A stretch of 64,000 bases of DNA, from positions 1 through 64,000 of IMG/VR virus record IMGVR_UViG_3300046167_000921; one strand, given 5' to 3'. Below are positions 3,936 through 47,559 of this stretch, piece after piece. This DNA comes from a virus. The stretch's first letter is position 1. Every line of letters starts with the position of its first letter. A program made the position numbers and the translations under genes. The notes beneath the pieces are model-generated. The model worked only from the letters and a program-made list of their open reading frames with translations, did no database searches and was not told the DNA's origin.

Positions 3936-3976
3936 TTTATATTGCTGTCAAATAGCAAATAACAAGGAGACTATTC

Positions 3977-4624
3977 ATGAGCCAAGATTTTTCAGGTCAA
4001 ATACTAAACGAAGCCTTTATGCAAGGGCGAGACTTAAGTGACGCAATTTTTACAGATTCCAAACTTGTAGGTGCAGATCTTTCATATGCTGATTTGAGAG
4101 GTGCGGATCTAACCAACGCGGATCTCTCATATGCTATCCTCACAGGAGCAAAACTAGACGATGCGGTGTTGGAGAACACAATACTAGAAGGGGCTTCTGT
4201 AGAGTCCACAATCTTACAGGATGACTTCCAAGAGGACTTTGTGGCTCGAAGGAAGCCAAGCCCCCTGTATGTGGCAAAAAGGCTTTCTATAATAGAGGAG
4301 AGGGCAAGGGAAGCTATTAGCAAAAAGACAGGTCTCCGACTCGAAACGGTGAGCTTCGCACCTGACATTTTGAGGTCGTACCTTAGAGTTCAGCTACAAA
4401 TCACCGAGAAAGAAACATCTGCGGGTCTATACTTCCTCTTGCCTGAGAGGGGGGAGATTAGACTGCTTCAAGCTGAGACTAGGGGAGGTAAAGTAATGTT
4501 TCTCATAGCTCAGCTTGAGGTCGAGTACGAGAACAAAAAAGTCAGAAAGGTTTTGAGGGTGAAGAAATTCTCAAACTTAAAGACCGCATACCAATACTAC
4601 CGAAAGGTTGAAGAGAGCCGATAG
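3977..4624 (+). CDS. Pentapeptide-repeat protein with unrelated C-terminal domain
   Basis: RDLSDAIFTDSKLVGADLSYADLRGADLTNADLSYAILTGAKLDDAVLEN; AAGGAG SD. Confidence 0.85.
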   Translation: MSQDFSGQILNEAFMQGRDLSDAIFTDSKLVGADLSYADLRGADLTNADLSYAILTGAKLDDAVLENTILEGASVESTILQDDFQEDFVARRKPSPLYVAKRLSIIEERAREAISKKTGLRLETVSFAPDILRSYLRVQLQITEKETSAGLYFLLPERGEIRLLQAETRGGKVMFLIAQLEVEYENKKVRKVLRVKKFSNLKTAYQYYRKVEESR

Positions 4625-5970
4625 TATCTATTAGCTACCCTCCTAGCATTTGCTTTCTTCGTGTTTAAGACACCCGAGTGGTCTTTAAGAGCGTCCAAAA
4701 CCTCTTTTGAAATCTCAGTCTTCCCAGAAAGCAAGTCAGTCGCCATCTTTGATATCTCTTCGCTGTTAGCCTCAATCTCTTCAACAAGCAGGTCTTCAGC
4801 CTCATATTGATCTTTGAGATATTTGAGTTTCAGGAATGCGGGTAGATCTTTATTTTCACCCCTCTTGAGGAATGCACCTTCTTCGCTCCCCTCACTCTCA
4901 CCTAAGAGGTAGACACCTTTGTCTATAGAGGGTCTGACGTTATCGTCGAAGTCCTTGTAGAGGGATAGGATCTCATCTCTCATCTTGTCTGGGTCTTTAT
5001 TTGAAGTAAGAATCTCATCTAGTTTAGAGCTGTATTCTTTATTGATAGCCTCTGGTGTGGAGTACCCTGCATAGATGTCTGCCGCGAGGTCGTCATAGGC
5101 AACTGAGCTACCTTGACCCTTACCTTTGATTTGGTTGACTTTTTTAACAATCCGCTTAAAGACAAACCCCGTCACTAAGCTGGCAACAGCGACACCCGCT
5201 AACCAAGGTATCCATGAAGGAGCGGTGGCTATTGAGACAGCCCCTGCCGCGTGAGCCGCTTTAGTTGCGACAATAGACCCAACACTGACTTTTGCACCTA
5301 AACCTGCGAGCGTCGCGACTTTAGGGATGATTGTAGACTGAACCCAATTTGCCGCGAGGAGTTTAGATGAGGTCTTAATCTCGGGGTTACTCTCTGCGAT
5401 CTCTTTGAGCTTCTTTTGAAAATCAGGGTCGGACTTCTTTTCCTCTCCCTTATAGAGACCTGTCATCAGCTTGTTCATTTTCCCGAAAAGCCCATTTAAC
5501 ATTCTAGCGTTCTGTTTGAGATACATCTTGAACCCGCGAACCGCCACCCCAATCCTGCCTTTGTTGTGTGTGGGAGTTTGAAAAGCTTTCTTGATATCCT
5601 TAGCCAGCTTCTCAATATCTTTCTTAGTGGGCTTAACCCCTTTTATCGCAAGTCGGTTGTCCTTGAAGACCTTCTTAGGTAAGCCCATGTTTTGCTTTCT
5701 AAGAAGCATAGAAACTGCATTTATTGAGACTTCGACATCACCGCCCGCCTGATTTTTCGCTTCGTCTTTCTTGATCGCCGACTCAAACTTCAGGAACATC
5801 CGACGGGCATACTCTTTCTGCTTCTTCTTTAACGGGTCATTCAAACTCTTCTTGGAGTGGTTTCTCCAAGACTTGAGAGTCCAATAACCAATTTGCCTGT
5901 CCGAGAAAGGATTTTTTCTCTTCCAACCTTTGAACGCCTCGTCAACTTTTTGGTTCATACTTTTTACCAT
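4597..5970 (-). CDS. Lys-rich helical protein with a long Gly/Ala hydrophobic segment
   Basis: 457 aa; VATLAGLGAKVSVGSIVATKAAHAAGAVSIATAPSWIPWLAGVAVASLVTGFVF; C-term KKANARRVANRYY. Confidence 0.75.
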   Translation of the reverse strand: MVKSMNQKVDEAFKGWKRKNPFSDRQIGYWTLKSWRNHSKKSLNDPLKKKQKEYARRMFLKFESAIKKDEAKNQAGGDVEVSINAVSMLLRKQNMGLPKKVFKDNRLAIKGVKPTKKDIEKLAKDIKKAFQTPTHNKGRIGVAVRGFKMYLKQNARMLNGLFGKMNKLMTGLYKGEEKKSDPDFQKKLKEIAESNPEIKTSSKLLAANWVQSTIIPKVATLAGLGAKVSVGSIVATKAAHAAGAVSIATAPSWIPWLAGVAVASLVTGFVFKRIVKKVNQIKGKGQGSSVAYDDLAADIYAGYSTPEAINKEYSSKLDEILTSNKDPDKMRDEILSLYKDFDDNVRPSIDKGVYLLGESEGSEEGAFLKRGENKDLPAFLKLKYLKDQYEAEDLLVEEIEANSEEISKMATDLLSGKTEISKEVLDALKDHSGVLNTKKANARRVANRYYRLSSTFR

Positions 5971-6035
5971 GTGGCACTACCTTCTTTTTCAGGCAAAACA
6001 GTCATTCTTATAACACAGAAATAAGGAGTAACATA

Positions 6036-6941
6036 ATGAAACTAGGATACGCTTGCATCAACACAGTGTTGAACGAACATAAAATAACAACAAACCGAGG
6101 AATGATTAAAAGGACTTTTAAAGCAAGAGGGTTGCCTTACGCCTCTGACCTAGCTCTTGAGAACTGCAAAGACCTTTTGAAGATCTTGCGTTGGAACGCA
6201 GATCGTAACATTAGGTTCTTTAGGCTTTCCTCTGATCTCTTTCCTTGGTCTTCAGAGTATGAGCTGACGGACTTGCCCTCTTATGAGGAGATAGGGCAAG
6301 TGCTAGAAGAAGCAGGTTCTTATGCTAAGCTACACGATGTTCGTATCACGACCCACCCTGGACCTTTCAATGTTCTGGGGTCTCCTAGAGAGGATGTAGT
6401 CTCAAGGTCAATCAAAGACCTGTCTACGCACGGCCAGATATTTGATATCATGGGGCTTGAGAATAGCCCCTATGCGAAGATAAACATTCATGTAGGAGGT
6501 ACATATGGTTGCCATGAGAAAACGTCTTGGAGATGGATTAGAGGCTTCTCTAAATTACCTGACTCTGTGAGATCTAGGTTGACTCTTGAGAATGACGACA
6601 AGAGCTCACAGTGGAGCGTGAGACATTTGTATGAAATGGTCTACAAGGAGACAGGTGTGCCTATTGTGTTTGACTACCACCACCATAGGTTTTGTGACGG
6701 TGGGCTTCGTGAGGTGGATGCTTTAGAGCTGGCTCTGTCTACTTGGGGGTCTGTGGTGCCTGTGGCTCATTATTCTCAAAGTAAAGCGGAGGAGTATGAC
6801 GATAAGAGTATTCGCCCTCAGGCACATTCGGATAGTTATTGGAAGTGCTTTGATCTGTATGGGAATGATGCGGACGTGATGCTTGAGTGTAAGCATAAAG
6901 AGCAGGGCTTATTTAAGATGCGTGAACTCCTCGCTTTGTAG
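6036..6941 (+). CDS. uvsE: UV DNA damage repair endonuclease UvsE/UVDE
   Basis: MKLGYACIN, FFRLSSDLFPW, HPGPFNVL, NIHVGG, RLTLENDDK, VFDYHHH, HYSQ, PQAHSD, DVMLECKHKE. Confidence 0.95.
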   Translation: MKLGYACINTVLNEHKITTNRGMIKRTFKARGLPYASDLALENCKDLLKILRWNADRNIRFFRLSSDLFPWSSEYELTDLPSYEEIGQVLEEAGSYAKLHDVRITTHPGPFNVLGSPREDVVSRSIKDLSTHGQIFDIMGLENSPYAKINIHVGGTYGCHEKTSWRWIRGFSKLPDSVRSRLTLENDDKSSQWSVRHLYEMVYKETGVPIVFDYHHHRFCDGGLREVDALELALSTWGSVVPVAHYSQSKAEEYDDKSIRPQAHSDSYWKCFDLYGNDADVMLECKHKEQGLFKMRELLAL

Positions 6942-6984
6942 TCTTTATATGTCGGTTCTCTTGATGTTTGAAAGGAGTATAGTC

Positions 6985-7479
6985 ATGGAAAATAGGATCA
7001 GAGAACTGAAGGTAAGTCTCCAATATGCCATTGAAGCGGGGGACACTAGGAGTCTTCGCAGAACTCTCCCCGAAGAGTTCAAGCAAATCACTACAACATT
7101 GTCTGCCTTTGTACATGGGGAAGACTCAATCCCTCAACTCAAAGGTTATCTAGAAGAGATTGATTCTCTAGCCATCCTTAGAAGGATGAATCCTATATTC
7201 GAGGCCATGACCAGAGGGTCTTATTTAAACCTCACTCAGTCTTACCACCTCTCGTTGTATTTCGCTTCTCTAGAGGAAGTCGTCCGCAAGAACAGGACTC
7301 CGAAGTATGTTGGTGTGGACAGCATTATGCAGGATATTGACTTCTTGCTTACGGAAGGCAAGAAGATCCTTCCGAGGTCTCTCCATAAGCTCTTGAAGAA
7401 GAAAGCGGAGGATGCAAAACAGAAAGTGAAGGACAGGCTTTCTTCTGTAGATCGTTTACTTGATAGGTTCTTCAAGTAG
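6985..7479 (+). CDS. Hypothetical helical protein; start re-assigned to 6985
   Basis: GAAAGGAG SD before ATG GAA AAT AGG. Confidence 0.7.
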   Translation: MENRIRELKVSLQYAIEAGDTRSLRRTLPEEFKQITTTLSAFVHGEDSIPQLKGYLEEIDSLAILRRMNPIFEAMTRGSYLNLTQSYHLSLYFASLEEVVRKNRTPKYVGVDSIMQDIDFLLTEGKKILPRSLHKLLKKKAEDAKQKVKDRLSSVDRLLDRFFK

Positions 7480-7874
7480 GGGGGATCCCTAAAAGGGAAC
7501 TCCTTTTCGAACACCGCCTTCACCTTTGCATAGATGCCATTCCCTCTCCCATAAGTACGTGCACCTTCTTGACAGTAGCACCTAGCAATCATGTACTCAC
7601 AGAGAGTGTTTGTTAGCTCTAGTATTTTCTCATCTACGTATTGGTACTCGCCGTTTCTCTCTTTCCACTTCTCGTAGACGGAGATGGTTCGGAGTTGTAT
7701 ACTCCGATCTTGCCCACGATATGCTCTATGTCGTCTAGTGGGATTGTATATCTTAGAGAGATATTTATCAGGAGTCAGTCTCCTGTGACGTGCGTGCTTT
7801 ATAGTGTACAGAGCGAGGATCTTTTTTTGTTTATTTATAGGTTAGACAACAGACATAACTGAGAAAGGGCTATC

Positions 7875-8669
7875 ATGAGACAGCTAACCGCGAATCTATT
7901 TCAAGACTACTTTCAAGAACAAGGGGTAGACTACCTCTCACTTGACCGTAAATCCCAGAGAAGGCTTGAGAGTAAGCACTCAAAGAAGTTCTTAAAGTGG
8001 AATATAAAGCGAAAGATAGAGTTGGCTTTAGAGAAGAAAGGGCCTCTAAATAAGCTGAAGAGTAGGATAGACCTCTATCTAGACAAGTTACGATTCCACC
8101 CAAACATAGCTCCTGACCTACTATCTAAGCTAGAAGAAAATCTCAGTTATGAGGTTTTATCTGTCTTCGGTAAAGAGATAGAAGATGCGACTTCGGGGCC
8201 TGTCTTCTCCCACAAGGATAACTACAGGAAGCTAAGAAGCACCATAAGTAAAAATTATGGGTGGATGAATATAAAAGATTTGCCTACTCTTGACTCAGAG
8301 TTGGAAAAGAAGTTTAAGCCTCTTTTCCTCATACAAGAGAAAGAAGTAAGGCATCTGGGCAGGATTGTAAGAAAGCTTGCGGATCAATCTGCAAGGATTC
8401 CACCTGTCAATGTCAGAGGCTTAGAGGCTCTTGCCAAAGAAGTAGGCTCTTTACAAGCTCAACCTAAATATGTCGAAAACTATGGCAAGGTTCTCAAGGG
8501 GATTCAAGATCAGATCGAGTCTAAGTATGCGGTGCATGGTAAAGACCACAAGTATCTGGAGAAGCAATTCAAGATGGCTAAAAGGGCTTCGCAGATCCGC
8601 GTAGCCTCTCAGATGAACCGAGAGCTTCAGAGAGAGATCAAAGCTCTCAAGAGAGACCTCAACAAGTAA
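7875..8669 (+). CDS. Protein carrying the shared C-terminal module (divergent copy) and an MRQLTA start
   Basis: C-term LEALAKEVGSLQAQPKY...KRASQIRVASQMNRELQREIKALKRDLNK. Confidence 0.85.
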   Translation: MRQLTANLFQDYFQEQGVDYLSLDRKSQRRLESKHSKKFLKWNIKRKIELALEKKGPLNKLKSRIDLYLDKLRFHPNIAPDLLSKLEENLSYEVLSVFGKEIEDATSGPVFSHKDNYRKLRSTISKNYGWMNIKDLPTLDSELEKKFKPLFLIQEKEVRHLGRIVRKLADQSARIPPVNVRGLEALAKEVGSLQAQPKYVENYGKVLKGIQDQIESKYAVHGKDHKYLEKQFKMAKRASQIRVASQMNRELQREIKALKRDLNK

Positions 8670-8687
8670 CCAGAAGGAGAACAGAAC

Positions 8688-9137
8688 ATGAATAGTTTTG
8701 AAAAAAAAGAAATAGAAGCCGAGCTTAAGCTACTCGATCAAGACGTGAAAGAGGCAGAGAAAACTCAGAACGTAATGGAACTCAAGGTGATCCTCAGAAC
8801 TATCACAGAGCTTAAGCGAGATCTGCCGAGAGGAGATAGAACAAGATTGAGGGCATATGTTAGAGCAATTGTAAGGATTGAAGGTCTCATTGATTCCGTC
8901 AATGAGAGGCTTGAGGAAAGAAAATCTTTCATAAAGGAAATGAAACCACATATCAAGAAACTTGAAAGATTTAGTACTATGATTAAGTACCGCAAAGCCG
9001 CAGTGGAACGATGGCAAGAGAGAGTGGAGGAGCTTCTTGCGGACGGTATTGAAGATGAACGTACAACTAAAACATTAAATAGTTTTAAAAGTCTTCTCTG
9101 GCATAAGATCGACTTTTTTGAGCGTCGGGGTTTTTGA
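8688..9137 (+). CDS. Hypothetical helical protein inserted in the array
   Basis: AAGGAG SD; 149-aa charged helical ORF. Confidence 0.75.
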   Translation: MNSFEKKEIEAELKLLDQDVKEAEKTQNVMELKVILRTITELKRDLPRGDRTRLRAYVRAIVRIEGLIDSVNERLEERKSFIKEMKPHIKKLERFSTMIKYRKAAVERWQERVEELLADGIEDERTTKTLNSFKSLLWHKIDFFERRGF

Positions 9138-9221
9138 TCGAAAAGCATCAGGGGCTTTTTTGTTTATATATAGGTGTCCTTGTGGAGATGTGACAATAGA
9201 GATACATGAAATCAACTAAGG

Positions 9222-10157
9222 ATGAAAACAATGGCTAACCCAAACGACTTAAAAAGAGTCCTCGATGGATCATATGTTCCCAGAGCGGATCTCACAAATG
9301 CGGATCTCAGAAATGCGGATCTCAGGGATGCGGGTCTCTGGGATGCGGATCTATCAGGTGCGGATCTCAACAATGCGAAACTCAAGGATGCGAGTCTTGA
9401 ACGTGCGTATCTTATAGATGCGAAACTCAAAGGTGCGGATCTCAGGGATGCGGGTCTCTGGGATGCGGATCTGACAGGTGCGGATCTCAGCAAAGCGGAT
9501 CTCAGAAATGCGTGGCTTTTGGAAGCTAATCTCACGGGTGCGGATCTGACGGGTGCGAAGCTTGGAAGAGCGATCCTTACTAATGCGGAACTCATAAATG
9601 CGAAACTTGAACGTGCTAACTTAAGTAAAGCGAATCTCATTGAGGCGGATCTCAGAAAAGCTAAACTCAGAGGTGCGATTCTTACTAATGCGGATCTTTC
9701 AGGTGCGGATCTCAATCTTGCGGATCTTGAAGGTGCGGATCTGACAGGTGCGGATCTGACAGGTGCGGATCTGACAGGTGCGAAAGGTATACCTCTGTCC
9801 ATCTCTGATAAATTTCCCCACAAAGGAGAGACGGTAGAGGAAAAAGCCCGAAGAGAGACAATCCAAGACATCACACGTCGCGTCTCCAGAGCTAAGAAAG
9901 ACAAGGAGCTGGAAGCTCTCGCTCAAGAAGTGGGTTCTCTACAAGCTCAACCTGATTATGTTAAAGAGTACAAGAAAGTCCTCGAAGACCTGCAAGCTGA
10001 AATCGAGGAGAAGTATTCTGTTTTAGGTAAGGGTCTTAATTATCTGAAGAAGCTCTTCAGCAGAGGTAAAAGGGCTTCGCAGATCCGCGTAGCTAGTGAG
10101 ATGAATAGAGAAATCCAGAGAGAGATTAAAGCTCTGAAGAGAGATCTCGACAAGTAA
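9222..10157 (+). CDS. Pentapeptide-repeat protein plus shared C-terminal module (likely start at 9231, MANP)
   Basis: Long A(D/N/K)Lxx repeat run followed by the ARRETIQDI...KRDLDK module. Confidence 0.92.
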   Translation: MKTMANPNDLKRVLDGSYVPRADLTNADLRNADLRDAGLWDADLSGADLNNAKLKDASLERAYLIDAKLKGADLRDAGLWDADLTGADLSKADLRNAWLLEANLTGADLTGAKLGRAILTNAELINAKLERANLSKANLIEADLRKAKLRGAILTNADLSGADLNLADLEGADLTGADLTGADLTGAKGIPLSISDKFPHKGETVEEKARRETIQDITRRVSRAKKDKELEALAQEVGSLQAQPDYVKEYKKVLEDLQAEIEEKYSVLGKGLNYLKKLFSRGKRASQIRVASEMNREIQREIKALKRDLDK

Positions 10158-10182
10158 GATATCGCCGTGATCCTATTTAAGA

Positions 10183-10216
10183 AGCCCTGCTCCCCATTCG
10201 GGGGGTGGGGCTTTTT
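10183..10216 (+). terminator. Terminator fused to a TTTATATAGG promoter-like element
   Basis: AGCCCTGCTCCCC-attc-GGGGGGTGGGGCT-TTTTGTTTATATAGG. Confidence 0.85.
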
Positions 10217-10295
10217 GTTTATATAGGTGTCCTTGTAGAGTATTGATAATAGAGACAACAGTAGAAACAAGACAACTAAGAAGGAGGTAAGCCAC

Positions 10296-11384
10296 ATGGC
10301 GACATACACATATGAAGACCTACACCCCAGAAACAATTACTTTGTGGCCGAAGTATACGGTCACGTCCGAGTTGAAGACATTGACCGTTGGATGAGGACT
10401 GGGGTTTGGGCCGAGATGGACGAGATTTTGCATGAATTTGAGGTGTACAAAGAGGCAGAGGATTTCGTCCGAAGGACAAATGCAGAAGCAAAGAGCATCA
10501 TAGAGGATGTGGAGCGTAAGGGAGAAGAGAGTAAGCACGTTGAAGAGGAGGAGGACGACGAGGGCTATCCTACTTTCTATATAGAGTATGTTTTCGATCG
10601 AATTGATGAGAGAGAAGTCTCTGGGCTTGATGGTCACTTCTTTAGCGGTGACACGTTTAAGATCGGGAAAACCAAAGGGTATGAAAAAAATAATCTCAGA
10701 GGTAAGGAATTTAATAATTGCAAATTCATAGGAGGGGGTTTAGAGTTTGATGAGTGCAAGTTCTTCAACTGCACATTCAGTGACGTAAACTCCATTACTT
10801 TTTATTATTCTCGCTTTGAAGACTGTGACTTCACGCAGTCTTCAAATATCCTCTTAGATCCAAGAGGAGGTGAAGAAATCATAAGATGCAAGTTTGATGG
10901 GGCGAGACTCAAAGAGCACATAAAATATTATCTACTTAATTTATCTGGGACTTCGGGTTTTTCAGTAGAAGACACAGACCCTAAGGGAGACCGCAGAAGA
11001 AACCTTTCAGAGGAAATGCTAACGGTTGAAGAAATAGCGTCAATTAGAGAAGAGGAAGAGAGAGAAGAGGAAGCCCGAAGAGTGGCAATCCAAGACATCA
11101 CACGTCGCGTCTCCAGAGCTAAGAAAGACAAAGAGTTGGAAGCTCTCGCTCAAGAAGTGGGTGCTCTACAAGCCCAACCTCAGTATGTTAAAGAGTACAA
11201 GAAAGTCCTCAACGACCTCCAAGGGGAGATCGAGAAGAAGTATTCTGTTTTAGGTAAGGGTCTTAAGTATCTGAAGAGACTCTTCGGCAGAGGTAAAAGG
11301 GCATCACAGGTTCGCATTGCTTCTCAGATGAATAGAGAAATTCAGAGAGAGATCAAAGCTCTGAAGAGAGACCTTCGTAAGTAG
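10296..11384 (+). CDS. Acidic N-domain plus degenerate pentapeptide repeats plus shared C-terminal module
   Basis: NNCKFIGGGLEFDECKFFNCTFSDV...SRFEDCDF; module 11071-11384 nearly identical in DNA to 9844-10157; AAGGAGGT SD. Confidence 0.9.
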   Translation: MATYTYEDLHPRNNYFVAEVYGHVRVEDIDRWMRTGVWAEMDEILHEFEVYKEAEDFVRRTNAEAKSIIEDVERKGEESKHVEEEEDDEGYPTFYIEYVFDRIDEREVSGLDGHFFSGDTFKIGKTKGYEKNNLRGKEFNNCKFIGGGLEFDECKFFNCTFSDVNSITFYYSRFEDCDFTQSSNILLDPRGGEEIIRCKFDGARLKEHIKYYLLNLSGTSGFSVEDTDPKGDRRRNLSEEMLTVEEIASIREEEEREEEARRVAIQDITRRVSRAKKDKELEALAQEVGALQAQPQYVKEYKKVLNDLQGEIEKKYSVLGKGLKYLKRLFGRGKRASQVRIASQMNREIQREIKALKRDLRK

Positions 11385-11420
11385 CAGATCACTTATTTAG
11401 ATGCTGATCCTATTTAAGAA

Positions 11421-11458
11421 AGCCCCGCTTCCCTATCATTGGGAGGTGGGGCTTTTTT
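11421..11458 (+). terminator. Terminator fused to promoter-like element
   Basis: AGCCCCGCTTCCC-tatcatt-GGGAGGTGGGGCT-TTTTTGTTTATATATAGG. Confidence 0.85.
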
Positions 11459-11518
11459 GTTTATATATAGGTGTCCTTGTGGAGATGTGACAATAGAGAT
11501 ACATGAAATCAACTAAGG

Positions 11519-12454
11519 ATGAAAACAATGGCTAACCCAAAACACTTAGAAAGAGTCCTCGATGGATCATATGTTCCCAGAGCGGATCTCACAAATGCGG
11601 ATCTCAGAAATGCGGATCTCAGGGATGCGGGTCTCTGGGATGCGGATCTGACAGGTGCGGATCTCAACAATGCGAAACTCATTGGTGCGAGTCTTCAAGG
11701 TGCGTATCTTATAGATGCGAAACTCAAAGGTGCGAATCTTATAGATGCGAAACTCAGCAAAGCGAAACTCAGCAAAGCGAAACTCAGCAAAGCGAAACTC
11801 TGGGGTGCGAATCTTATAGGTGCGGATCTATCAGGTGCGGATCTGACAGATGCGAAGCTTGGAAGAGCGATCCTTACTAATGCGGAACTCATAAATGCGA
11901 AACTTGAACGTGCTAACTTAAGTAAAGCGGATCTCAGACGTGCGAATCTCCATCAGGCTAAACTTATAGGTGCTATTCTTACTAATGCGAATCTTGGCGG
12001 TGCGGATCTCAATCTTGCGGATCTTTCAGGTGCGGATCTGACAGATGCGAAACTCAATGGAGCGGATCTTCAAGGTGCGATAGGTATACCTCTGTCCATC
12101 TCTGATAGATTCCCCCACAAAGGAGAGACGGTAGAGGAAAAAGCCCGAAGAGAGACAATCCAAGATGTCACCAAACGTGTCTCCAAAGCTAAGAAAGACA
12201 AGGAGCTGGAAGCTCTCGCTCAAGAAGTGGGTTCTCTACAAGCTCAACCTGATTATGTTAAAGAGTACGGAAAAGTCCTCGAAGACCTGCAAACTGAAAT
12301 CGAGGAGAAGTATTCTGTTTTAGGTAAGGGTCTTAATTATCTGAAGAAGCTCTTCAGCAGAGGTAAAAGGGCTTCGCAGATCCGCGTAGCTAGTGAGATG
12401 AATAGAGAAATTCAGAGAGAGATCAGTGAGCTGAAGAGAGACCTCAACAAGTAA
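11519..12454 (+). CDS. Pentapeptide-repeat protein plus shared C-terminal module
   Basis: Paralogue of 9222; about 90 bp of upstream/start sequence identical to 9151-9242. Confidence 0.92.
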   Translation: MKTMANPKHLERVLDGSYVPRADLTNADLRNADLRDAGLWDADLTGADLNNAKLIGASLQGAYLIDAKLKGANLIDAKLSKAKLSKAKLSKAKLWGANLIGADLSGADLTDAKLGRAILTNAELINAKLERANLSKADLRRANLHQAKLIGAILTNANLGGADLNLADLSGADLTDAKLNGADLQGAIGIPLSISDRFPHKGETVEEKARRETIQDVTKRVSKAKKDKELEALAQEVGSLQAQPDYVKEYGKVLEDLQTEIEEKYSVLGKGLNYLKKLFSRGKRASQIRVASEMNREIQREISELKRDLNK

Positions 12455-12480
12455 GATATCGCAGTACTAGAGTTTAAGGA

Positions 12481-12517
12481 AGCCCTGCCCCCTATTATTG
12501 GGGGGTAGGGGTTTTTT
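12481..12517 (+). terminator. Terminator fused to promoter-like element
   Basis: AGCCCTGCCCCC-tattatt-GGGGGGTAGGGGT-TTTTTGTTTATATATAGG. Confidence 0.85.
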
Positions 12518-12577
12518 GTTTATATATAGGTGTCCTTGTGGAGAATTGATAATAGAGATACATGAAATCAACTAAGG

Positions 12578-13426
12578 ATGAAAACAATGGCTAACCCAAA
12601 CGACTTAAAAAGAGCCCTCTATGGAGATAAGGATCTTCACTACGCGGATCTTTCAGGTGCGAATCTTATAGATGCGAAACTATCGCGTGCGGATCTTGTA
12701 GGTGCGGATCTCAAAGATGCGAAACTATCAGGTGCGGATCTTGACGGTGCGTATCTCAATCATGCGGAACTTATAGGTGCGGATCTCTCTCATACTACAC
12801 TTACAGGTGCTCGGCTCAGGGATGCGTATCTCACAGGTGCGTATCTTATAGATGCGAAACTCATAGATGCGAATTTCAGTGATGCGAATCTCAGCAAAGC
12901 GGATCTCAGGGGTGCGGATTTCTGGGGTGCGATTCTTACTAATGCGATTCTCAAAGATGCGGATCTTGAAGGAGCAAAACTAGACGATGCGGATCTCACG
13001 GGTGCGGATCTGACAGGTGCGAAACTCAAGGGAGCGGATCTGACAGGTGCGAAAGGCATACCTCTGTCCATCTCTGATAAATTTCTCCACAAAGGGGAGA
13101 CGGTAGAGGAAAAAGCCCGAAGAGAGACAATCCAAGATGTCACCAAACGTGTCTCCAGAGCTAAGAAAGACAAGGAGCTGGAAGCTCTCGCTCAAGAAGT
13201 GGGATCTCTACAAGCTCAACCTGATTACGTTAGAGAGTATGAAAACATCCTCGACGACCTCCAAGGGGAGATCGAGAAGAAGTATTCTGTTTTAGGTAAG
13301 GGTCTTAATTATCTGAAGAAGCTCTTCAGCAGAGGTAAAAGGGCTTCGCAGATTCGCGTAGCTAGTGAGATGAACCGAGAGCTTCAGAGAGAGATTAAAG
13401 TTCTCAAGAGAGATCTCGACAAGTAA
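12578..13426 (+). CDS. Pentapeptide-repeat protein plus shared C-terminal module
   Basis: Paralogue of 9222/11519 with different repeat order and number. Confidence 0.92.
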   Translation: MKTMANPNDLKRALYGDKDLHYADLSGANLIDAKLSRADLVGADLKDAKLSGADLDGAYLNHAELIGADLSHTTLTGARLRDAYLTGAYLIDAKLIDANFSDANLSKADLRGADFWGAILTNAILKDADLEGAKLDDADLTGADLTGAKLKGADLTGAKGIPLSISDKFLHKGETVEEKARRETIQDVTKRVSRAKKDKELEALAQEVGSLQAQPDYVREYENILDDLQGEIEKKYSVLGKGLNYLKKLFSRGKRASQIRVASEMNRELQREIKVLKRDLDK

Positions 13427-13463
13427 GATATCGCCGTACTGAGGCATAGATCAGATTTAAGGA

Positions 13464-13501
13464 AGCCCTGCTCCCCTAACGGGGGGTGGGGCTCTTTTTT
13501 T
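13464..13501 (+). terminator. Terminator fused to promoter-like element
   Basis: AGCCCTGCTCCCC-taac-GGGGGGTGGGGCT-cTTTTTTTGTTTATATA. Confidence 0.85.
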
Positions 13502-13545
13502 GTTTATATACCTCTCACATAGCTAAAGATGAGAGGATATGAGCT

Positions 13546-14916
13546 ATGTCACATGGATGGTACAACAGTAGAAGCCCTTGGCCACTCCCTCCTAAGAACA
13601 CAATCGCTGTCTCTCCCTTCAAAAAAGGAGAGATCGACGTGCGATGGGATAACCCAGCATTGCTTCACGGCAATGAAGGCTGGATCATCAGAGGGGTCAA
13701 TATATACAGATCGAGTAACTCTGATAGAGGAACATACTATAGAGTAAACGTAGTCCCTGTAGGAGGTAATCTCTATAGGGATCAAATGCATACTTGGACT
13801 GTCCATGAGGAAGTAGTACAAGGCTCCGCATGGATCTCCAGAGGCGGGCAAGCAGAAGACCCTTATCGCTTCCTTACAAAGTACCCTATCGCTAAACTCA
13901 ATGGCATATATGATTCAGCAGACTCGTCCAAAGATGTAGTCGTTACGGTAGACGGTGAAGTCATACCCGTCGCGAGAGTCTTGGGCGACCTGCGACAAGT
14001 GGTTCTCTACTACAGAGGTGTTCCGACAACTGATGCCGTCACTCTTAGAGAGAGCAACATTCTAGAGATCACAGATCAGTCTGTAGTTAAAGTCAGCTAC
14101 CTAGCATACGATCCAAGCACAAGACTTGGCGTTGGCGTGGACAGGAGAGACTTCTATAGACTTACTACAGTGGCAGAAGATCCTCTAACAGGGAGACTCC
14201 ATGAGACCCCGTTGGATCAATGTCAACCTTTCTCTGACAGGGAGGTTGAGAAGATCGACTACATCTGGAGAGAAGGCATCCGTAGGAACAATTGGATCTT
14301 AGAGCAAAGCGGTGAGAGGGTTAAGTTGTTCACCCGTAAGCAAGTGGGAGAGCCTTGCTTCTGTACAGCTTTCAACAGGGAGACATTATCGTATGGGAAG
14401 CAACCTGACAGCCTTTGCAAGATCTGTTTTGGTACAGGGATTAAAGGTGGCTATGAAGGCCCTTATGACATCATCATTGCTACGGATGAGACGGAGAAGA
14501 GGATTGTTCAAGAAGACAGAGGTCGGCGTAAAGAACACTCCTATGAGATCTGGATCGGACCTAGTCCTATCGTGTCTCAGAAGGACTTCATTGTTAAGAC
14601 TAACAATGACAGGTACTCTATAGGTGCTGTCAGATACCCTTCTAATAGAGGTAATATTCTCCAGCAACACTTTAACATTGCTTATCTTGACAGCGGAGAT
14701 ATGAGATATAACTTCCCTGTAGACGGAGTTCCTGTATATTGGGCAAAGACTCAGTATGGGTATTGGCCACAGAGAGACACTTACACTGCGAGATCTGATG
14801 CTAAGTATCCTCTTATTGGAGACAGTGCTTATCCTTCGGGTGCGAACAGGCCTGATGTATCAGATTCTGTAGAGCGTAAGGGTAGAACAGCGGCTTGGGA
14901 AAATCAGAATTACTGA
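13546..14916 (+). CDS. Putative head-completion/neck protein with an N-terminal beta-sandwich domain
   Basis: RVKLFTRK..GEPCFC...CKICFGTGIKGGYEGPY Zn-finger motif and beta-barrel-like C-half typical of myovirus head closure proteins. Confidence 0.6.
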   Translation: MSHGWYNSRSPWPLPPKNTIAVSPFKKGEIDVRWDNPALLHGNEGWIIRGVNIYRSSNSDRGTYYRVNVVPVGGNLYRDQMHTWTVHEEVVQGSAWISRGGQAEDPYRFLTKYPIAKLNGIYDSADSSKDVVVTVDGEVIPVARVLGDLRQVVLYYRGVPTTDAVTLRESNILEITDQSVVKVSYLAYDPSTRLGVGVDRRDFYRLTTVAEDPLTGRLHETPLDQCQPFSDREVEKIDYIWREGIRRNNWILEQSGERVKLFTRKQVGEPCFCTAFNRETLSYGKQPDSLCKICFGTGIKGGYEGPYDIIIATDETEKRIVQEDRGRRKEHSYEIWIGPSPIVSQKDFIVKTNNDRYSIGAVRYPSNRGNILQQHFNIAYLDSGDMRYNFPVDGVPVYWAKTQYGYWPQRDTYTARSDAKYPLIGDSAYPSGANRPDVSDSVERKGRTAAWENQNY

Positions 14917-29721: not shown

Positions 29722-31095
29722 ATGAGCACCAAGCTACCAAAAAAGAAAAGCTATAACCCGTCTGACTTTAACCGCTATGGAAAGGAATGGGCAAGCAGAG
29801 ATCCTCGCAGGAGTATTGCTAATGTGAAGTTTTCAGGGGCGACGCTCATAATAGAGCCTGTCCACAAATTTTACGGCTGCACATTCAACAACTGCGTTAT
29901 TGTCCTAAAAAGCTATGGCAGAGAGAGTAGCCATCACCTAAAAATAAATAAGTTTAACAACTGTGTTATACGAGACAAGAGAGGCGATAATTCAGACGTG
30001 ACCTTTGGAAGTTGTACCCTCAAAAGCACAGTTGTGAAAAGTCCTATCGGACTAGGGGAACCTACCGAAAAAACTCATTTCATTAACTGCGAAATAAAAA
30101 AAGGGTACGGCAATGTTGATTTTAAGGGGGTCAACCTTGATGGCACTAAAGGCTTTAAATATGCCGATACTTCAATAGTAGAACACAAGGGTGTGACTGC
30201 TGAAGAAAAGGTGGTTATGGGTAGAAATGTTCAGAAGCTAGCAAGGGCTTTGAATAAGGTCAAAAACTTCAAGACCCTACTGAAGAAAGTGATCGCTCTT
30301 GAAGAGCAGTATGTCTATAAGAAGCACTTTGGTAGCGAACTGAGGACTCTAAGAGTAGAAATCAGGAAGCGGATTAAAGAGAAGCTGCGTAAAAATCAGG
30401 AAGAGGCTAGGCTTCGTCAACAGATCCAGCAAGAAGTTCAACTACTCAATCTGGATCTCGCTCGAGCCCAAGGAGATGATGAGTTAGTGCCTATTATGAT
30501 GAGGGCAGATTCTCTTCTTGAAGACCCCCTTGCTGAAGAATTCAAAGCTGACTTAGGGTTTATACAAGAGACAGCTAAATCCAAGCTCTCTCTCTGGGAG
30601 CGTATGCTTAAAAATAAGAGAAAACTCTTCAATGAGGGTCGTAGGGCTTCACAGATCAGAACCGCGTCACAGATGCTCAACCATCTCAACAAAGAGGCAG
30701 GAGTCTTCGACTCGTTTTCAGAGGGGGTGCTTAAATCTATCCTAGAGAAAGTCCTCAAGATGATGGTCGAAGAGAATCTGATTTCGGAGCACTTCAGCTA
30801 CAGCCCAAGTATTAAGTTCATTAAAAGAGGCGGGTTGGAGAGTGCGTTCGTGAAGGGCAACAATGACCTCGGAGACTTCTCTATCAGGGTAAACAAGAAG
30901 GGGGAGAATGTAGTTGTTTTCTTAAGACCCTCTGAAGGAGGTCGTGTGCTATTAGGGAAGGATGTCAGGTTCTCCCTAATAGACCCCAAAGCCTCTGAGA
31001 GGAAGATCCTTCAAGAAGTAGGGGGTAGTTTAAAAAGTAAGGGCAAAGTCGGCTTACTGCATGAGCTACTTACGGGCTACAACCCTCACCTTTAA
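29722..31095 (+). CDS. Degenerate pentapeptide repeats plus internal divergent copy of the shared module plus extra C-terminal domain
   Basis: FYGCTFNNCVI; HKGVTAEEK (cf. HKGETVEEK); KLFNEGRRASQIRTASQM...NKEAG. Confidence 0.8.
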   Translation: MSTKLPKKKSYNPSDFNRYGKEWASRDPRRSIANVKFSGATLIIEPVHKFYGCTFNNCVIVLKSYGRESSHHLKINKFNNCVIRDKRGDNSDVTFGSCTLKSTVVKSPIGLGEPTEKTHFINCEIKKGYGNVDFKGVNLDGTKGFKYADTSIVEHKGVTAEEKVVMGRNVQKLARALNKVKNFKTLLKKVIALEEQYVYKKHFGSELRTLRVEIRKRIKEKLRKNQEEARLRQQIQQEVQLLNLDLARAQGDDELVPIMMRADSLLEDPLAEEFKADLGFIQETAKSKLSLWERMLKNKRKLFNEGRRASQIRTASQMLNHLNKEAGVFDSFSEGVLKSILEKVLKMMVEENLISEHFSYSPSIKFIKRGGLESAFVKGNNDLGDFSIRVNKKGENVVVFLRPSEGGRVLLGKDVRFSLIDPKASERKILQEVGGSLKSKGKVGLLHELLTGYNPHL

Positions 31096-44352: not shown

Positions 44353-45711
44353 ATGGCATTCTTACGATATGCAAGAGCTAATGTAGTAACTCCTCAACTC
44401 GGGGGTTCTGAATGGGACAAGATCAGGGTAGCTTCTGGTTCAAAGCAGATGAATAGGTCTCTTAAAGCAAAGGCGGAAGATATACTTGGTGAAGAATTCA
44501 CCCCTGACAAGTATCTACTTACCCATGCAACTATCGTCTGTTCCGTAGATGCCATCACACCCCCAAACACCAAAACAGGGTCTATTAAAGAGGGTGGCGT
44601 TACTATCAATAGAAAGTACGCTGACTTTCGTATTTCTAAAGACACAGATAAGTTCATCAATAACAACCTAGACTCATGGTCAAGAGGTGTTATTAAGAAG
44701 TCGTACCAGACCTTCATCGGAGCTCATAACTTTGTCGAACACGTTCAGGTTGAAGAGCTGTCTAAAGGTAAGATTATAGACGCTGTACTTAGAGACATAG
44801 GCGACTCTTTATATGTAGACATCCTTGTGGCAACAAACAAGAAGCACAAAGACCTCATTGAGCAGATTGTCTCTGGCAAAATGAATTCTATGTCAATGGG
44901 TTGCTCTGTGGACTTTACTATCTGCACTAAATGTGGACACGTAGCCGCGGATGAGCCTGAAATGTGCTCTCACGTCAAATACGAGAAGGGTAACACCTTC
45001 TTCGATGAACAAGGTGTGAAACACAGGGTTGCAGAGCTATGTGGACACGAAGATATCGGGGAAACTGCAGGTGTCACTTTCATTGAAGCTTCTTGGGTTG
45101 CAACTCCTGCTTTCCCTGGTGCGGTGGCAAGGAATACTTTAGATATTCCTGAAAAGTGGCTGGAAAAAAAAGCTAGCCTTGTAACCGCCGCTTTCGGAGT
45201 GGACGAAGATAGCGAAGAAGGCGAAGGGGGTCAGGATAAAGCTCCCTCAGATGGCCTCCTAAAAAAGCTAGATGCTGTCTACGAAGAAGCTGTTATCGAC
45301 AGATTCAAGAAGAAGCTGGAAACTGAGATCAAGAAAGAAAAGTCTCAGTTAGCTCTACACCCCCCCATCAGCAAATCTACCGTTGAGCAGAACGACACCA
45401 TCATTAAAGAAGGTGGCTCTATCAACACGGAAGATTATCTCAAAGCATTAGGCCTCTCCATAAGAACTGCTAATTCAGAGCAAGAGGCGGTCTTTAACAT
45501 AGCTTTGGTCAACAACCACTTCGGTGTCAATGTACCCTCTAGTGTCTATAAGGTCGCTAGTAAGATAGGGAACGCCGAAAACTATTCCTCTGTGGAAGAC
45601 TTTCTGAAGAAAGCTTCAGAGGTGTATGGTAAAACACTATCAGAAAAAGAGTCTTTCGCTCTTATTCGAATCTCAAAACTTTTATCCCTTAACAGTTTCG
45701 GGCAGAGATAA
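44353..45711 (+). CDS. Prohead (capsid maturation) serine protease with Cys/His cluster
   Basis: HNFVEH, SMSMGC, IEASWVATPAF; position upstream of scaffold and capsid genes. Confidence 0.8.
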   Translation: MAFLRYARANVVTPQLGGSEWDKIRVASGSKQMNRSLKAKAEDILGEEFTPDKYLLTHATIVCSVDAITPPNTKTGSIKEGGVTINRKYADFRISKDTDKFINNNLDSWSRGVIKKSYQTFIGAHNFVEHVQVEELSKGKIIDAVLRDIGDSLYVDILVATNKKHKDLIEQIVSGKMNSMSMGCSVDFTICTKCGHVAADEPEMCSHVKYEKGNTFFDEQGVKHRVAELCGHEDIGETAGVTFIEASWVATPAFPGAVARNTLDIPEKWLEKKASLVTAAFGVDEDSEEGEGGQDKAPSDGLLKKLDAVYEEAVIDRFKKKLETEIKKEKSQLALHPPISKSTVEQNDTIIKEGGSINTEDYLKALGLSIRTANSEQEAVFNIALVNNHFGVNVPSSVYKVASKIGNAENYSSVEDFLKKASEVYGKTLSEKESFALIRISKLLSLNSFGQR

Positions 45712-45729: not shown

Positions 45730-47559
45730 ATGAAAGGAGTACCTATGTCTAGGTATACTCGTTCTAAGTCTCAGAGGTCTTCTTCTGCCCGAAGGAACCT
45801 CCGTTCACGCCGTGCTAACTCAGCTATCCCAGGTTATGACAACCTCGGCTGGGAAGATTTCGGCCACCCCGCTTCAGCAGACCAGCCTAGTCTTGAGGAC
45901 TATGGAATCGAATCAGATTTCGGTGAGGGTGTACGCAAAGGTCCTTACGGCGACAGTCCTGCACCAGCTTCTTACGGATGGGAGCCAGATCATCCCGCTT
46001 CAAGAAGTGCTAGCCTCCGTGACCGAAAGCTCCGTAAAGCTATGGAGCGTAAGGCTGCCAAGTGCATCAAGATTGCTGAGTCTCGTCTCGGCAAGTCTGC
46101 GTCTCAGCGTGAGATTGAAGACCTCGCACTCCGCTTCATGGATCTCCCAAATAAGGCGGTTAACACTCGCGTAGCTAGCCTCGACCACCATATGGGTATG
46201 GAAGATCTCGATGCAGATGAAGACGACATCATGGCAATGATGGACCACCATATGGGTATGGAAGACCATATGGGTATGGACGACCATATGGGCATGGAAG
46301 ATCTCGATGCAGATGAAGACGACATCATGGCAATGATGGACGATCATATGGGTATGGAAGACTTCGATGCTGATGAAGACGACATCATGGGCATGGAAGA
46401 CCATATGGGTATGGACGACCTCGATGCAGATGAAGACGACATCATGGCAATGATGGACGACCATATGGGTATGGAAGATCTCGATGCAGATGAAGACGAC
46501 ATCATGGCAATGATGGACGACCATATGGGTATGGAAGATCATATGGGTATGGACGACCATATGGGTATGGACGACCATATGGGTATGGAAGACTTCGATG
46601 CAGACGAGGACGACATCATGGCAATGATGGACGAACCTGTGGCACATGGCATCTTTGACGAGTATGACCTCGACATGGATGGGATGATCAGCCCAGAAGA
46701 GTTCGGAGGTTCAGCGGACGCTTTCAACGCTATGGACAGCGACCTCGACGGCTTCCTCTCTAGGGAAGAAGCTTCTGTCGGACTCGGTGACTCTTTTGGA
46801 GAAGAAGCCGCTGAAGTTCTCGCGGAGGAAGTGACTATGCTTAAAGCCGCGAATGCTCGCCTCTCACGTAAAGTCCGCAGTCTCTCTGTTCGCATGGCAT
46901 CTCAGGAAGAGGCTTCTGAAGAAGAAGCATCTGAAGAAGAAGCCGAAGAGAAGGAGACTTCAAAGAAGAAGGCAAGCACTTCTCGTCGTATTGCCCGCAT
47001 CGAGAGACTTGCTAATGCACTCTCTGATTACATGGCTGAGATGGAGCGTCAGGCATCTGAGGAAGAGGCTTCTGAAGAAGAAGCATCTGAGGAAGAAGCT
47101 GAAGAGAAAGAGACTTCAAAGAAGAAGGCTAAGGAAGAAGAGGCATCTGAGGAAGAGGCTTCTGAAGAAGAAGCCGAAGAGAAGGAGACTTCAAAGAAGG
47201 CTTACCACTCAATGGCTGACGTTCTCGCCGACCTTGAGATAGAAGCAGACGAAGAAGAGATCGTCGCAGAAGATCCTATGGGTCTTGATGCTTCAGACCT
47301 TGGCATGATCGACCCTAAGCTTGCTTCAATCTTCACCGCTTCTGACGAAGATGACGAAGATGACGAAGATGCAGACGAGACAGAAGATGGCGATAGCGAG
47401 GAGAAGGAGACTTCAAAGAAGGCCTCTTACCGACCAAGCAAGAGAACTCGTCAAGCTTCTGTGAAGACACTCGGCAACATCAGCCGTGAGGCATCTAGCT
47501 CAGACGAGCTCTCTAAGCTCTGGGAATCAGCCCCAGACGTTTCTAAGTTCTTCGGGTGA
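45730..47559 (+). CDS. Scaffolding/prohead core protein (likely start 45745) with repeats and two EF-hand loops
   Basis: Between protease and capsid genes; very acidic; many [KR]xAS sites; C-term SDELSKLWESAPDVSKFFG. Confidence 0.75.
   Translation: MKGVPMSRYTRSKSQRSSSARRNLRSRRANSAIPGYDNLGWEDFGHPASADQPSLEDYGIESDFGEGVRKGPYGDSPAPASYGWEPDHPASRSASLRDRKLRKAMERKAAKCIKIAESRLGKSASQREIEDLALRFMDLPNKAVNTRVASLDHHMGMEDLDADEDDIMAMMDHHMGMEDHMGMDDHMGMEDLDADEDDIMAMMDDHMGMEDFDADEDDIMGMEDHMGMDDLDADEDDIMAMMDDHMGMEDLDADEDDIMAMMDDHMGMEDHMGMDDHMGMDDHMGMEDFDADEDDIMAMMDEPVAHGIFDEYDLDMDGMISPEEFGGSADAFNAMDSDLDGFLSREEASVGLGDSFGEEAAEVLAEEVTMLKAANARLSRKVRSLSVRMASQEEASEEEASEEEAEEKETSKKKASTSRRIARIERLANALSDYMAEMERQASEEEASEEEASEEEAEEKETSKKKAKEEEASEEEASEEEAEEKETSKKAYHSMADVLADLEIEADEEEIVAEDPMGLDASDLGMIDPKLASIFTASDEDDEDDEDADETEDGDSEEKETSKKASYRPSKRTRQASVKTLGNISREASSSDELSKLWESAPDVSKFFG
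46183..46632 (+). repeat. Coding tandem repeats: 11 x HMGM and 6 x DADEDDIM units
   Basis: GACCATATGGGTATG and GATGCAGATGAAGACGACATCATG units. Confidence 0.9.
46900..47200 (+). repeat. Three coding repeats EEASEEEASEEEAEEKETSKK
   Basis: Direct from translation. Confidence 0.85.

What the first reader, a model, noticed from the sequence alone, without database searches (positions are those of the whole stretch)
7875..13501. Tandem cassette array of pentapeptide-repeat proteins with a constant tail and shuffled repeat coils
Seen: self-contained units of terminator, TTTATATATAGG, leader, CDS and terminator. Three units encode A(D/N/K)Lxx beta-helix proteins built from reshuffled 15-nt modules: 9222 and 11519 share the start and the AKLGRAILTNAELINAKLERANLSKA block but differ in between, and 12578 has another order. 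A fourth unit (10296) swaps in an unrelated N-domain at AAGCCCGAAGAG. Established: pentapeptide beta-helices such as MfpA and Qnr are DNA mimics acting on gyrase. Inference: a diversifying battery of packaged DNA mimics (compare T4 IPI*, T7 Ocr) against host nucleases, DNA sensors or gyrase-targeting toxins. Three more pentapeptide genes lie at 3-644, 3977 and 29722.
Basis: partly seen in the sequence, partly recalled or inferred. Interest (0 to 1): 0.8.

Follow-up and report, generated by a model that had tools for sequence, protein, structure and literature searches.

The report
Shuffling pentapeptide-repeat cargo cassettes, giant phage
An uncultured phage-G-like giant phage carries a fast-rearranging row of self-contained genes for rod-shaped pentapeptide-repeat proteins that all end in the same 100-residue helical module, which probably loads them into the phage head for delivery with the DNA, though neither loading nor any DNA-mimic activity has been shown.

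Summary
Window 7826-13510 holds five cassettes, each a promoter-like TTTAT(A/T)TA box, leader, CDS and hairpin terminator. All five proteins end in one conserved 85-109-aa helical tail. Three bodies are clear pentapeptide-repeat (PRP) beta-helices (Pfam E 1e-51 to 1e-58; AlphaFold pLDDT 92). The "unrelated" fourth body is a degenerate beta-helix. A fifth tail gene (7875) was missed.

The array is not invariant. Estuarine contigs 97-99% identical in both flanks carry other cassettes, orders and PRP lengths (282-598 aa). A complete 312-kb relative has no array at this site.

Copies B and D are collinear mosaics. All 38 amino-acid differences lie at outward-facing repeat positions.

The tail is clade-specific (41 clusters among 1.8 billion proteins). 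Its invariant core is R-A-S-Q-x-R-x-A-S. [KR]xAS is 2.6-fold enriched in this proteome, most densely in the scaffold-like protein and the head protease. This supports loading into the head and clipping there, but does not prove it.

The DNA-mimic idea rests on fold only: PRP charge runs from -16 to +3.

Earlier notes of this scan had already proposed address tags in this genome. This is best seen as a new variant of the T4-type internal-protein system.

The parts
7826..7841 (+). Promoter-like box TTTGTTTATTTATAGG in front of cassette A
7875..8669 (+). Cassette A: 264-aa protein with a basic non-PRP body (pI 9.8) plus the conserved tail (8412-8666)
8688..9137 (+). 149-aa helical protein, no tail, co-transcribed behind a tail gene. 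The block tail plus 149-aa gene is kept (87.5% nt) in relatives, where it sits behind a 598-aa PRP
9159..9174 (+). Promoter-like box of cassette B (exact TTTGTTTATATATAGG)
9222..10157 (+). Cassette B: PRP with 35 pentapeptide units, GIPLSISDKFPHKGETVEE connector and tail (9828-10154). Likely start at 9231
10178..10217 (+). Hairpin terminator of B (18 pairs), with its T-run merging into the next promoter-like box
10296..11384 (+). Cassette C: acidic N-domain plus degenerate beta-helix (xxCxF type) plus tail (11061-11381). Junction with the common sequence at about 11070
11415..11459 (+). Hairpin terminator of C (19 pairs)
11519..12454 (+). Cassette D: PRP with 35 units, net charge +3, tail 12125-12451, and an AKLSK x3 tandem at 11747-11800
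12483..12510 (+). Hairpin terminator of D
12578..13426 (+). Cassette E: PRP with 29 units, tail 13097-13423. Its orthologue is the first cassette in relative L019 (92% nt)
13464..13493 (+). Hairpin terminator of E, followed by TTTGTTTATATAC in front of the 456-aa virion-like gene 13546-14916
29722..31095 (+). 457-aa fusion protein with the tail inside it (30430-30699). It is two genes in relative L003: 272 aa ending in the tail, and 152 aa starting with the leader. They are joined in the window by an 89-nt deletion between AAAGAG microhomologies
44353..45711 (+). Head maturation protease with four [KR]xAS motifs, one of them DKIRVAS near the N-terminus. Positions are kept in the 312-kb relative
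45730..47559 (+). Acidic repeat-rich scaffold-like protein between the protease and the capsid gene, with ten [KR]xAS motifs, the most in the genome
48296..49174 (+). Major head protein (38% identity to phage G gp27)

Best explanation
The array is a recombination hot spot in a roughly 310-kb phage-G-like myophage. It encodes a paralogous family of cargo proteins.

Each cassette is a separate transcription unit: TTTAT(A/T)TA box, constant 5'UTR and hairpin terminator. Each protein has four parts:
1. a MANPxD cap;
2. a variable body, usually a right-handed quadrilateral pentapeptide-repeat beta-helix of 29-90 units;
3. a fixed connector (GIPLSISDKFPHKGETVEE), with or without an ER/K single-helix spacer;
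4. a fixed tail, made of a three-helix bundle and then a long amphipathic helix preceded by K-R-A-S-Q-I-R-V-A-S.

Shown:
- the anatomy and the fold;
- the restriction of the tail to this phage clade;
- its attachment to unrelated bodies;
- rapid gain, loss, re-ordering and internal remodelling of cassettes among near-identical phages;
- confinement of amino-acid change to outward-facing repeat positions.

Inferred:
- The repeated constant DNA (exact repeats up to 118 nt; about 0.5 kb at 85-95% identity per cassette boundary) drives unequal and ectopic recombination between cassettes. The 15-nt units drive it within coils.
- The tail takes the proteins into the prohead.
- There the head protease (44353-45711) cuts at KRA|S and/or RVA|S.
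- The rod-shaped bodies are then stored with the DNA and delivered into the host, where their variable surfaces bind variable host targets. Counter-defence or host take-over is the most likely use.
- DNA mimicry is possible for the acidic members only.
For: Anatomy.

Fold: AlphaFold pLDDT 92, beta-helix at about 20-190 plus four helices. Foldseek top hits are PRPs such as Np275/276, HetL, QnrB1 and MfpA.

The tail is portable and clade-specific:
- Nine copies in this 57%-complete genome, on PRP and non-PRP bodies.
- 46 homologues with varied bodies.
- Only 41 clusters among 1.84 billion representatives.
- None in cultured phages or in bacterial genomes.

Hypervariability:
- L019 is 98.7% identical over window 675-7842, then runs straight into an E-like cassette.
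- L021, L022 and L023 have a 323-aa PRP, a 598-aa PRP, the 149-aa gene, a 210-aa gene, and then a 97%-identical 456-aa gene.
- The 312-kb relative G001 lacks the array and has only 2-3 tail genes.
- The orthologue pair.

Mosaic B versus D:
- dS is 0.03, 0.44, 0 and 0.24 along the coils.
- omega is about 1 in the coils against 0.38 in the tail.
- 38 of 38 amino-acid changes are at outward-facing positions and 0 of 68 at A/L positions.
- Exact repeats reach 118 nt.

Link to the head:
- The invariant tail residues are R-A-S-Q-x-R-x-A-S.
- [KR]xAS occurs 91 times against 35 +/- 5.5 expected, with control motifs at expectation. It is densest in the scaffold-like protein (10) and the head protease (4).
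- The protease motifs are kept in G001.
- The protease N-terminus reads DKIRVAS..QMNR, against SQIRVASEMNR in the tail.
- In L021 the same helix sits at an N-terminus and is followed by RTAS.
- The TTTATATA box also precedes the neighbouring virion-like gene and the gene before the tail sheath.

Precedent: giant-phage heads carry many protease-processed ejection proteins, including paralogues (PMC10052503).
Against: - There is no virion proteome, transcript or cleavage data, and the phage is uncultured.
- The specificity of the head protease is inferred from motif statistics only.
- The tail matches no known scaffold, capsid-targeting or cargo-loading sequence. Its fold matches only generic helical bundles (Z up to 8.1).
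- Homology between the terminal helix of the tail and the N-terminal leaders of other proteins is not shown (hhalign E 0.02 over 18 columns).
- An ER/K spacer of variable length between body and tail would also suit an outward-projecting fibre.
- All arrays come from short-read metagenome assemblies, and several contigs break inside the array. Some orders could therefore be chimeric.
- omega of about 1 in the coils may reflect off-register conversion rather than positive selection.
Confidence: 0.45

Rival explanations
1. The proteins act in the cytoplasm and are not packaged. The tail is an oligomerisation or partner-binding module (three-helix bundle plus coiled-coil helix) that assembles PRP rods into dimers or higher complexes, as C-terminal helices dimerise MfpA and Qnr. 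The [KR]xAS residues are structural or bind a common phage partner.
For: The tail is a confidently predicted helical domain with an amphipathic terminal helix. PRPs of the MfpA/Qnr type are dimers (established knowledge; PDB hits). Nothing shows packaging.
Against: It does not explain why the most conserved tail residues form a motif that is 2.6-fold enriched proteome-wide and concentrated in the scaffold-like protein and the head protease. It also does not explain why the helix works at either terminus with a [KR]xAS on the cargo side.
Confidence: 0.2
2. The proteins are external virion appendages, such as head or tail whiskers or adhesins. The constant C-terminal module anchors them to the capsid or tail, as the C-terminal domain of T4 Hoc does. 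The ER/K helix is a spacer. The variable beta-helix rods contact variable host surfaces, so cassette turnover reflects host range.
For: Beta-helical rods with variable surfaces and lengths (29-90 units). A variable-length ER/K spacer. Position at the edge of a structural module. A weak PHROG tail-fibre hit (1.3e-4). Turnover typical of receptor-binding genes.
Against: PRPs are not known as trimeric fibres. Bodies attached to the tail include small basic, acidic and a weak toxin-like DUF4258 domain (24.5 bits, just under the cut-off of 25). The link of [KR]xAS to protease and scaffold points inside the prohead.
Confidence: 0.15
3. The array and its apparent shuffling are largely an assembly artefact. 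Repeats of about 100 nt and strain mixtures led short-read assemblers to build chimeric cassette orders.
For: Exact repeats of 94-118 nt between cassettes. Contigs L018, L019, L021, L022 and L023 begin or end inside the array.
Against: The same 598-aa PRP, 149-aa and 210-aa order was assembled independently from three samples (L021, L022, L023). All ORFs are intact, with terminators and promoter boxes in register. The repeats are shorter than usual read pairs. Distinct PRP alleles (282, 311, 323, 590 and 598 aa) cannot be made by mis-joining alone.
Confidence: 0.07
4. Diversity-generating retroelement: the coils are variable regions rewritten from a template repeat by a reverse transcriptase.
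For: Localised hypervariability in a repeat scaffold.
Against: No reverse transcriptase in the 177-kb record. B/D mismatches involve all base pairs and are not adenine-specific. Variation includes unit indels and block replacement.
Confidence: 0.02

Closest known systems
Phage T4 internal proteins IPI, IPII, IPIII and Alt with the capsid targeting sequence, and the polymorphic internal-protein locus of T-even phages (from memory: Mullaney and Black; Repoila et al. 1994)
   Same: Unrelated bodies share one short conserved peptide next to presumed head-protease sites. The genes form a variable locus whose constant parts (promoter, tag) can serve as recombination handles. IPI* is a packaged counter-defence protein.
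   Different: Here the constant part is a roughly 100-aa C-terminal helical domain rather than a 10-residue N-terminal peptide. The presumed cut motif is [KR]xA|S rather than (L/I)xE. The cargo is mostly pentapeptide-repeat rods with a second, intragenic layer of 15-nt unit shuffling. Packaging and cleavage are unproven.
Protease-processed ejection and inner-body protein paralogue families of giant phages (phiKZ, 201phi2-1, SPN3US; PMC10052503)
   Same: A giant myophage with families of paralogous head proteins carrying removable propeptides. The head protease also processes itself.
   Different: Those propeptides are N-terminal and long, and the motif is (S/A/G)-x-E. None is a pentapeptide-repeat protein. 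No sequence similarity was found.
MfpA / Qnr / AlbG pentapeptide-repeat gyrase-protection proteins
   Same: The same right-handed quadrilateral beta-helix fold (20-25% identity). Rod dimensions are similar to DNA.
   Different: The surfaces are not consistently acidic: net charge runs from +3 to -16. There are no Qnr loops, and a phage-specific tail is added. No link to gyrase is known.
Encapsulin cargo-loading peptides and the C-terminal coat-binding helix-turn-helix of the P22 scaffold (from memory)
   Same: A C-terminal helical element that directs a fused protein into the interior of an HK97-fold shell.
   Different: No sequence or specific structural match was found. This is an analogy only.

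Membership tests
Pentapeptide repeat proteins (PF00805) | Tandem A(D/N)LXX units over several coils | tested here: met
   E 6e-51, 9e-58 and 1e-53 for 9222, 11519 and 12578. 35, 35 and 29 units in register. 10296 has only weak hits (E 0.003-0.005). 7875 has none.
Pentapeptide repeat proteins (PF00805) | Right-handed quadrilateral beta-helix | tested here: met
   AlphaFold pLDDT 92. Foldseek E 1e-14 to 1e-7 to PRP structures. This is a prediction, not a solved structure.
MfpA/Qnr-type DNA-mimic gyrase protectors | Predominantly electronegative, DNA-like surface | tested here: inconclusive
   Net charge of the PRP domains is -7, +3 and -8. The faces carry mixed charge. The family ranges from -14 to +3.6 per 100 aa. 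No electrostatic surface was computed.
MfpA/Qnr-type DNA-mimic gyrase protectors | C-terminal-helix dimer forming a rod of about 100 A; binding to GyrA/GyrB | not testable with these tools
   No multimer prediction or assay is available.
T4-type capsid-targeted internal proteins | One conserved terminal peptide shared by unrelated proteins | tested here: met
   The tail sits on PRP and several non-PRP bodies. Its terminal helix alone occurs on 92162-92899, and at the N-terminus of a 210-aa protein in L021.
T4-type capsid-targeted internal proteins | Tag adjoins a head-protease cleavage site | tested here: inconclusive
   Invariant RAS-Q-x-R-x-AS. [KR]xAS is enriched with z of about 10 and is densest in the scaffold-like protein and the protease. 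The specificity of the protease has not been measured.
T4-type capsid-targeted internal proteins | N-terminal tag of about 10 residues ending in (L/I)xE | tested here: not met
   The tag is C-terminal, about 25 to 100 aa long, and has a different motif. So this is analogous to, and not a member of, the T4 CTS family.
T4-type capsid-targeted internal proteins | Presence in the mature head and ejection with the DNA | not testable with these tools
   The phage is uncultured and no proteome exists.
Diversity-generating retroelement targets | Reverse transcriptase plus template/variable repeat pair with adenine-specific changes | tested here: not met
   No RVT_1 in the record. The mismatch spectrum is not A-specific. 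The record is only 57% complete.

The most novel reading that the evidence does not exclude
The phage uses the pentapeptide beta-helix as a folded, DNA-sized rod that packs among the DNA strands and can leave through the tail without unfolding. The cassette array would then be an exchangeable, fast-evolving library of injected decoys or inhibitors. Rod length (29-90 units) and surface would be retuned by 15-nt unit recombination. A C-terminal domain would serve as a new kind of capsid-loading signal, removed by an alanine-specific head protease.
Probability: 0.25. Interest if true: 0.8.

Novelty: new variant of a known kind. Interest (0 to 1): 0.55.

Why it matters
If the tail is a loading signal, this clade of phage-G-like megaphages shows two things. 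First, a natural C-terminal domain-type address for putting arbitrary proteins into a large capsid, which would be useful for engineering cargo-carrying capsids. Second, a first functional setting for the many unexplained pentapeptide-repeat genes of phages: a rapidly diversifying injected repertoire.

Cassette turnover between genomes that are 97-99% identical elsewhere marks the locus as being under an ongoing arms race. It therefore points to host targets worth finding. If the tail is not a loading signal, the locus is still a clear case of two-level recombinational diversification (cassette and 15-nt unit) in a repeat protein.

Tried and rejected
- Tail against known families: Pfam and PHROGs gave nothing significant. 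ESM Atlas gave no usable hit. tblastn against 50,697 cultured or deposited phages gave no match. A bacterial genome scan found none.
- Tail fold: the tail-only model (pLDDT 89) searched against 48,161 PDB chains returned only generic helical bundles, Z up to 8.1.
- Leader versus tail helix: the profile comparison was weak (E 0.02, 18 columns). I do not claim that they are homologous. The in-phase fusion in 29722 shows only that the two can be joined.
- Head protease: Pfam S77 and S78 were not found in this genome or in G001. The protease was identified through phrog_18299.
- DGR: rejected.
- Literature: no paper was found on packaged or anti-defence phage PRPs. The phage G multi-omics paper gives no cleavage motif.
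The long ENA contigs that carry P0001 and P0009 (296 kb) could not be fetched.
- No surface electrostatics or multimer modelling was possible.
Full report
**Context.** The window is the first 64 kb of a 177,493-bp IMG/VR virus record that CheckV rates 57% complete. It encodes the following:
- a 1,603-aa tail sheath;
- a head maturation protease at 44353-45711, and a major head protein at 48296-49174;
- between those two, an acidic repeat-rich scaffold-like protein.

The head protein is 38% identical to gp27 of Bacillus phage G and 89% identical to an uncultured 485-kb phage. A complete relative of 312,136 bp with terminal repeats exists (G001). All close relatives come from estuarine or marine metagenomes.

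**Observation.** The finding is real. Five cassettes lie between 7826 and 13510. Each has:
- a T-rich box TTTGTTTAT(A/T)TATAGG (9 matches in the window against 0.39 expected);
- a 45-78-nt leader;
- a CDS;
- for four of them, a strong G+C hairpin followed by a T-run that merges into the next box.

The proteins of 7875, 9222, 10296, 11519 and 12578 share a C-terminal tail of 85-109 aa, 68-93% identical. 8688-9137 (149 aa) has no tail and rides behind 7875. The three PRPs score E 1e-51 to 1e-58 on PF00805 and have 35, 35 and 29 units in perfect register. The body of 10296 is an acidic domain followed by a degenerate beta-helix (weak Pentapeptide_3/4 hits). The probable start is the second ATG (MANP...), as in homologues.

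**Structure.** AlphaFold with 24 homologues gives pLDDT 92. The model has a cap helix, a beta-helix from about residue 20 to 190, the GIPLSISDKFPHKGETVEE connector, and four helices at 205-223, 227-241, 244-267 and 272-310. Foldseek finds only PRPs (Np275/276, HetL, QnrB1, MfpA, AlbG) and many unannotated phage PRPs. The tail alone folds as a three-helix bundle plus a long helix (pLDDT 89). It has only generic structural neighbours.

**The tail is a portable, clade-specific module.**
- This partial genome has nine copies. They include a 415-aa PRP and a 158-aa non-PRP protein at 143-146 kb, a PRP at 92 kb that keeps only the last 30 residues, and an internal copy in 29722.
- A word-indexed search found 46 homologues with PRP or unrelated bodies.
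- An exhaustive profile search of 1.84 billion representatives found 41.
- None is found in cultured phages or in bacterial genomes.
- The invariant residues are R-A-S-Q-x-R-x-A-S, just before the last helix.

**Diversification.**
- L019 is 98.7% identical to window 675-7842, then enters an orthologue of cassette E (92%) where the window has cassette A.
- L021, L022 and L023 come from three samples. They carry a 323-aa PRP, a 598-aa PRP of about 80-90 units with a long ER/K linker, the 149-aa gene, and a 210-aa gene. The 456-aa gene that follows is 97% identical to the window's.
- L018 has a 590-aa variant.
- G001 has no array at this site and only two or three tail genes elsewhere.
- The 415-aa PRP at 144 kb and its orthologue in L001 are identical for 211 residues. 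They then differ in a 60-residue patch of coils (with a two-unit indel) and by a 40-residue expansion of the ER/K linker. They are identical again in connector and tail.

Within the array, B and D are collinear mosaics. Along the coils, dS is 0.03, 0.44, 0 and 0.24. Omega is about 1 in the coils and 0.38 in the tail. All 38 amino-acid differences fall at the three outward-facing positions of the pentad and none at the 68 inward A/L positions. Exact repeats of up to 118 nt link the cassettes, and off-register copies of 39-56 nt show unit transfer. There is no reverse transcriptase and no adenine bias, so this is not a DGR.

**What the tail does.** Direct evidence is lacking. The indirect evidence is as follows.
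- [KR]xAS occurs 91 times in 202 ORFs against 35 +/- 5.5 in shuffles, while five of six control motifs sit at expectation and [KR]xAA is depleted.
- The protein richest in the motif is the scaffold-like protein (10 sites), and the head protease has four.
- The motifs in the protease are kept in the 76%-identical G001 orthologue even where neighbouring residues change. One lies just after the catalytic domain, where giant-phage proteases process themselves (PMC10052503).
- The two invariant motifs of the tail (KRAS, RVAS) sit between body and terminal helix.
- In a 210-aa protein of L021 the same helix is N-terminal and is followed by RTAS.
- The protease N-terminus reads DKIRVAS..QMNR, like SQIRVASEMNR in the tail.
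- The TTTATATA box also precedes the neighbouring virion-like gene 13546 and the gene before the sheath.

Together these points fit a tag-plus-cut-site grammar and loading into the prohead. Earlier notes of this scan proposed the same for this genome and gave me the motif as a lead; I tested its enrichment myself. I could not show that the terminal helix of the tail is homologous to the N-terminal leaders. The in-phase fusion in 29722, relative to two genes in L003, shows only that the two are compatible.

**DNA mimicry.** Only the fold supports it.
- Net charge of the PRP domains is -7 (B), +3 (D) and -8 (E), and -16 and -2 for the two distant copies.
- The faces carry mixed charge.
- The wider family spans -14 to +3.6 per 100 residues.
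- The most acidic PRP in the window is the tail-less, truncated 3-644 (net -36).

A more cautious reading is that the beta-helix is a rigid scaffold displaying a rapidly changing surface. Its DNA-like width may simply suit storage in, and exit from, the head; that last point is inference.

**Caveats.** All data come from short-read assemblies, and several contigs break inside the array.

**Verdict.** This is best seen as a new variant of the internal-protein/cargo-tag theme. It has a C-terminal domain-type tag, PRP cargo, and two levels of recombinational shuffling.

Noticed in passing
window 18136-19128: A 330-aa actin-fold protein matches Pfam Volactin (PF25216, E 1e-74). It is conserved between virion-like genes and the sheath in relatives down to about 40% identity (L008-L010).
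   Followed up: partly
window 29722-31095 versus L003 7491-8770: The 457-aa gene is a fusion of two genes that are separate in relatives. An 89-nt deletion between two AAAGAG microhomologies removes the end of the tail helix, the stop codon, and most of the leader of the next gene.
   Followed up: yes
window 45730-47559: An acidic protein between the protease and the capsid gene has many DHMGMED/DADEDDIMAMM repeats, an EF-hand motif (E 2e-9), EEEASEEEA repeats, and ten [KR]xAS motifs. It is probably the scaffold.
   Followed up: partly
window 3-644: A very acidic PRP (net -36, pI 4.05) without the tail, cut by the start of the contig. By charge it is the best DNA-mimic candidate in the window.
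   Followed up: partly
G000 91038-92111 (-) (L005 1539-2612): A chimeric 357-aa protein: a MANP cap with only three repeats and the GIPLS connector, an unknown middle part, an internal leader-like LQELELRVASLEREAG, and then a second full PRP domain.
   Followed up: no
L013 874-2064 (-) (G001 about 289.9-291.0 kb): A 396-aa protein with two tail copies and a C-terminal domain that weakly matches DUF4258 (24.5 bits, cut-off 25), a predicted toxin-type RNase fold.
   Followed up: no
L021 2629-3261: A 210-aa protein begins MANPKDVT-RASQIRVASEMNREIQREIKALKRDL-RTAS. The cap and the tag helix are joined directly at the N-terminus of an unrelated body. This gene is absent from the window.
   Followed up: partly
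window 6036-6941: A UV damage endonuclease UvdE (PF03851, E 1e-57) lies just upstream of the array.
   Followed up: no
L001 6903-8303 and L021 259-2055: An (EERLRKEEE)n ER/K-type linker lies between the PRP connector and the tail. Its length varies from 0 to about 70 residues among paralogues and orthologues.
   Followed up: partly
LR745208.1 (485 kb uncultured phage): Its head protein is 89% identical to the window's, yet tblastn with the tail finds no match in that record. The tail family is therefore patchy even among close capsid relatives.
   Followed up: no
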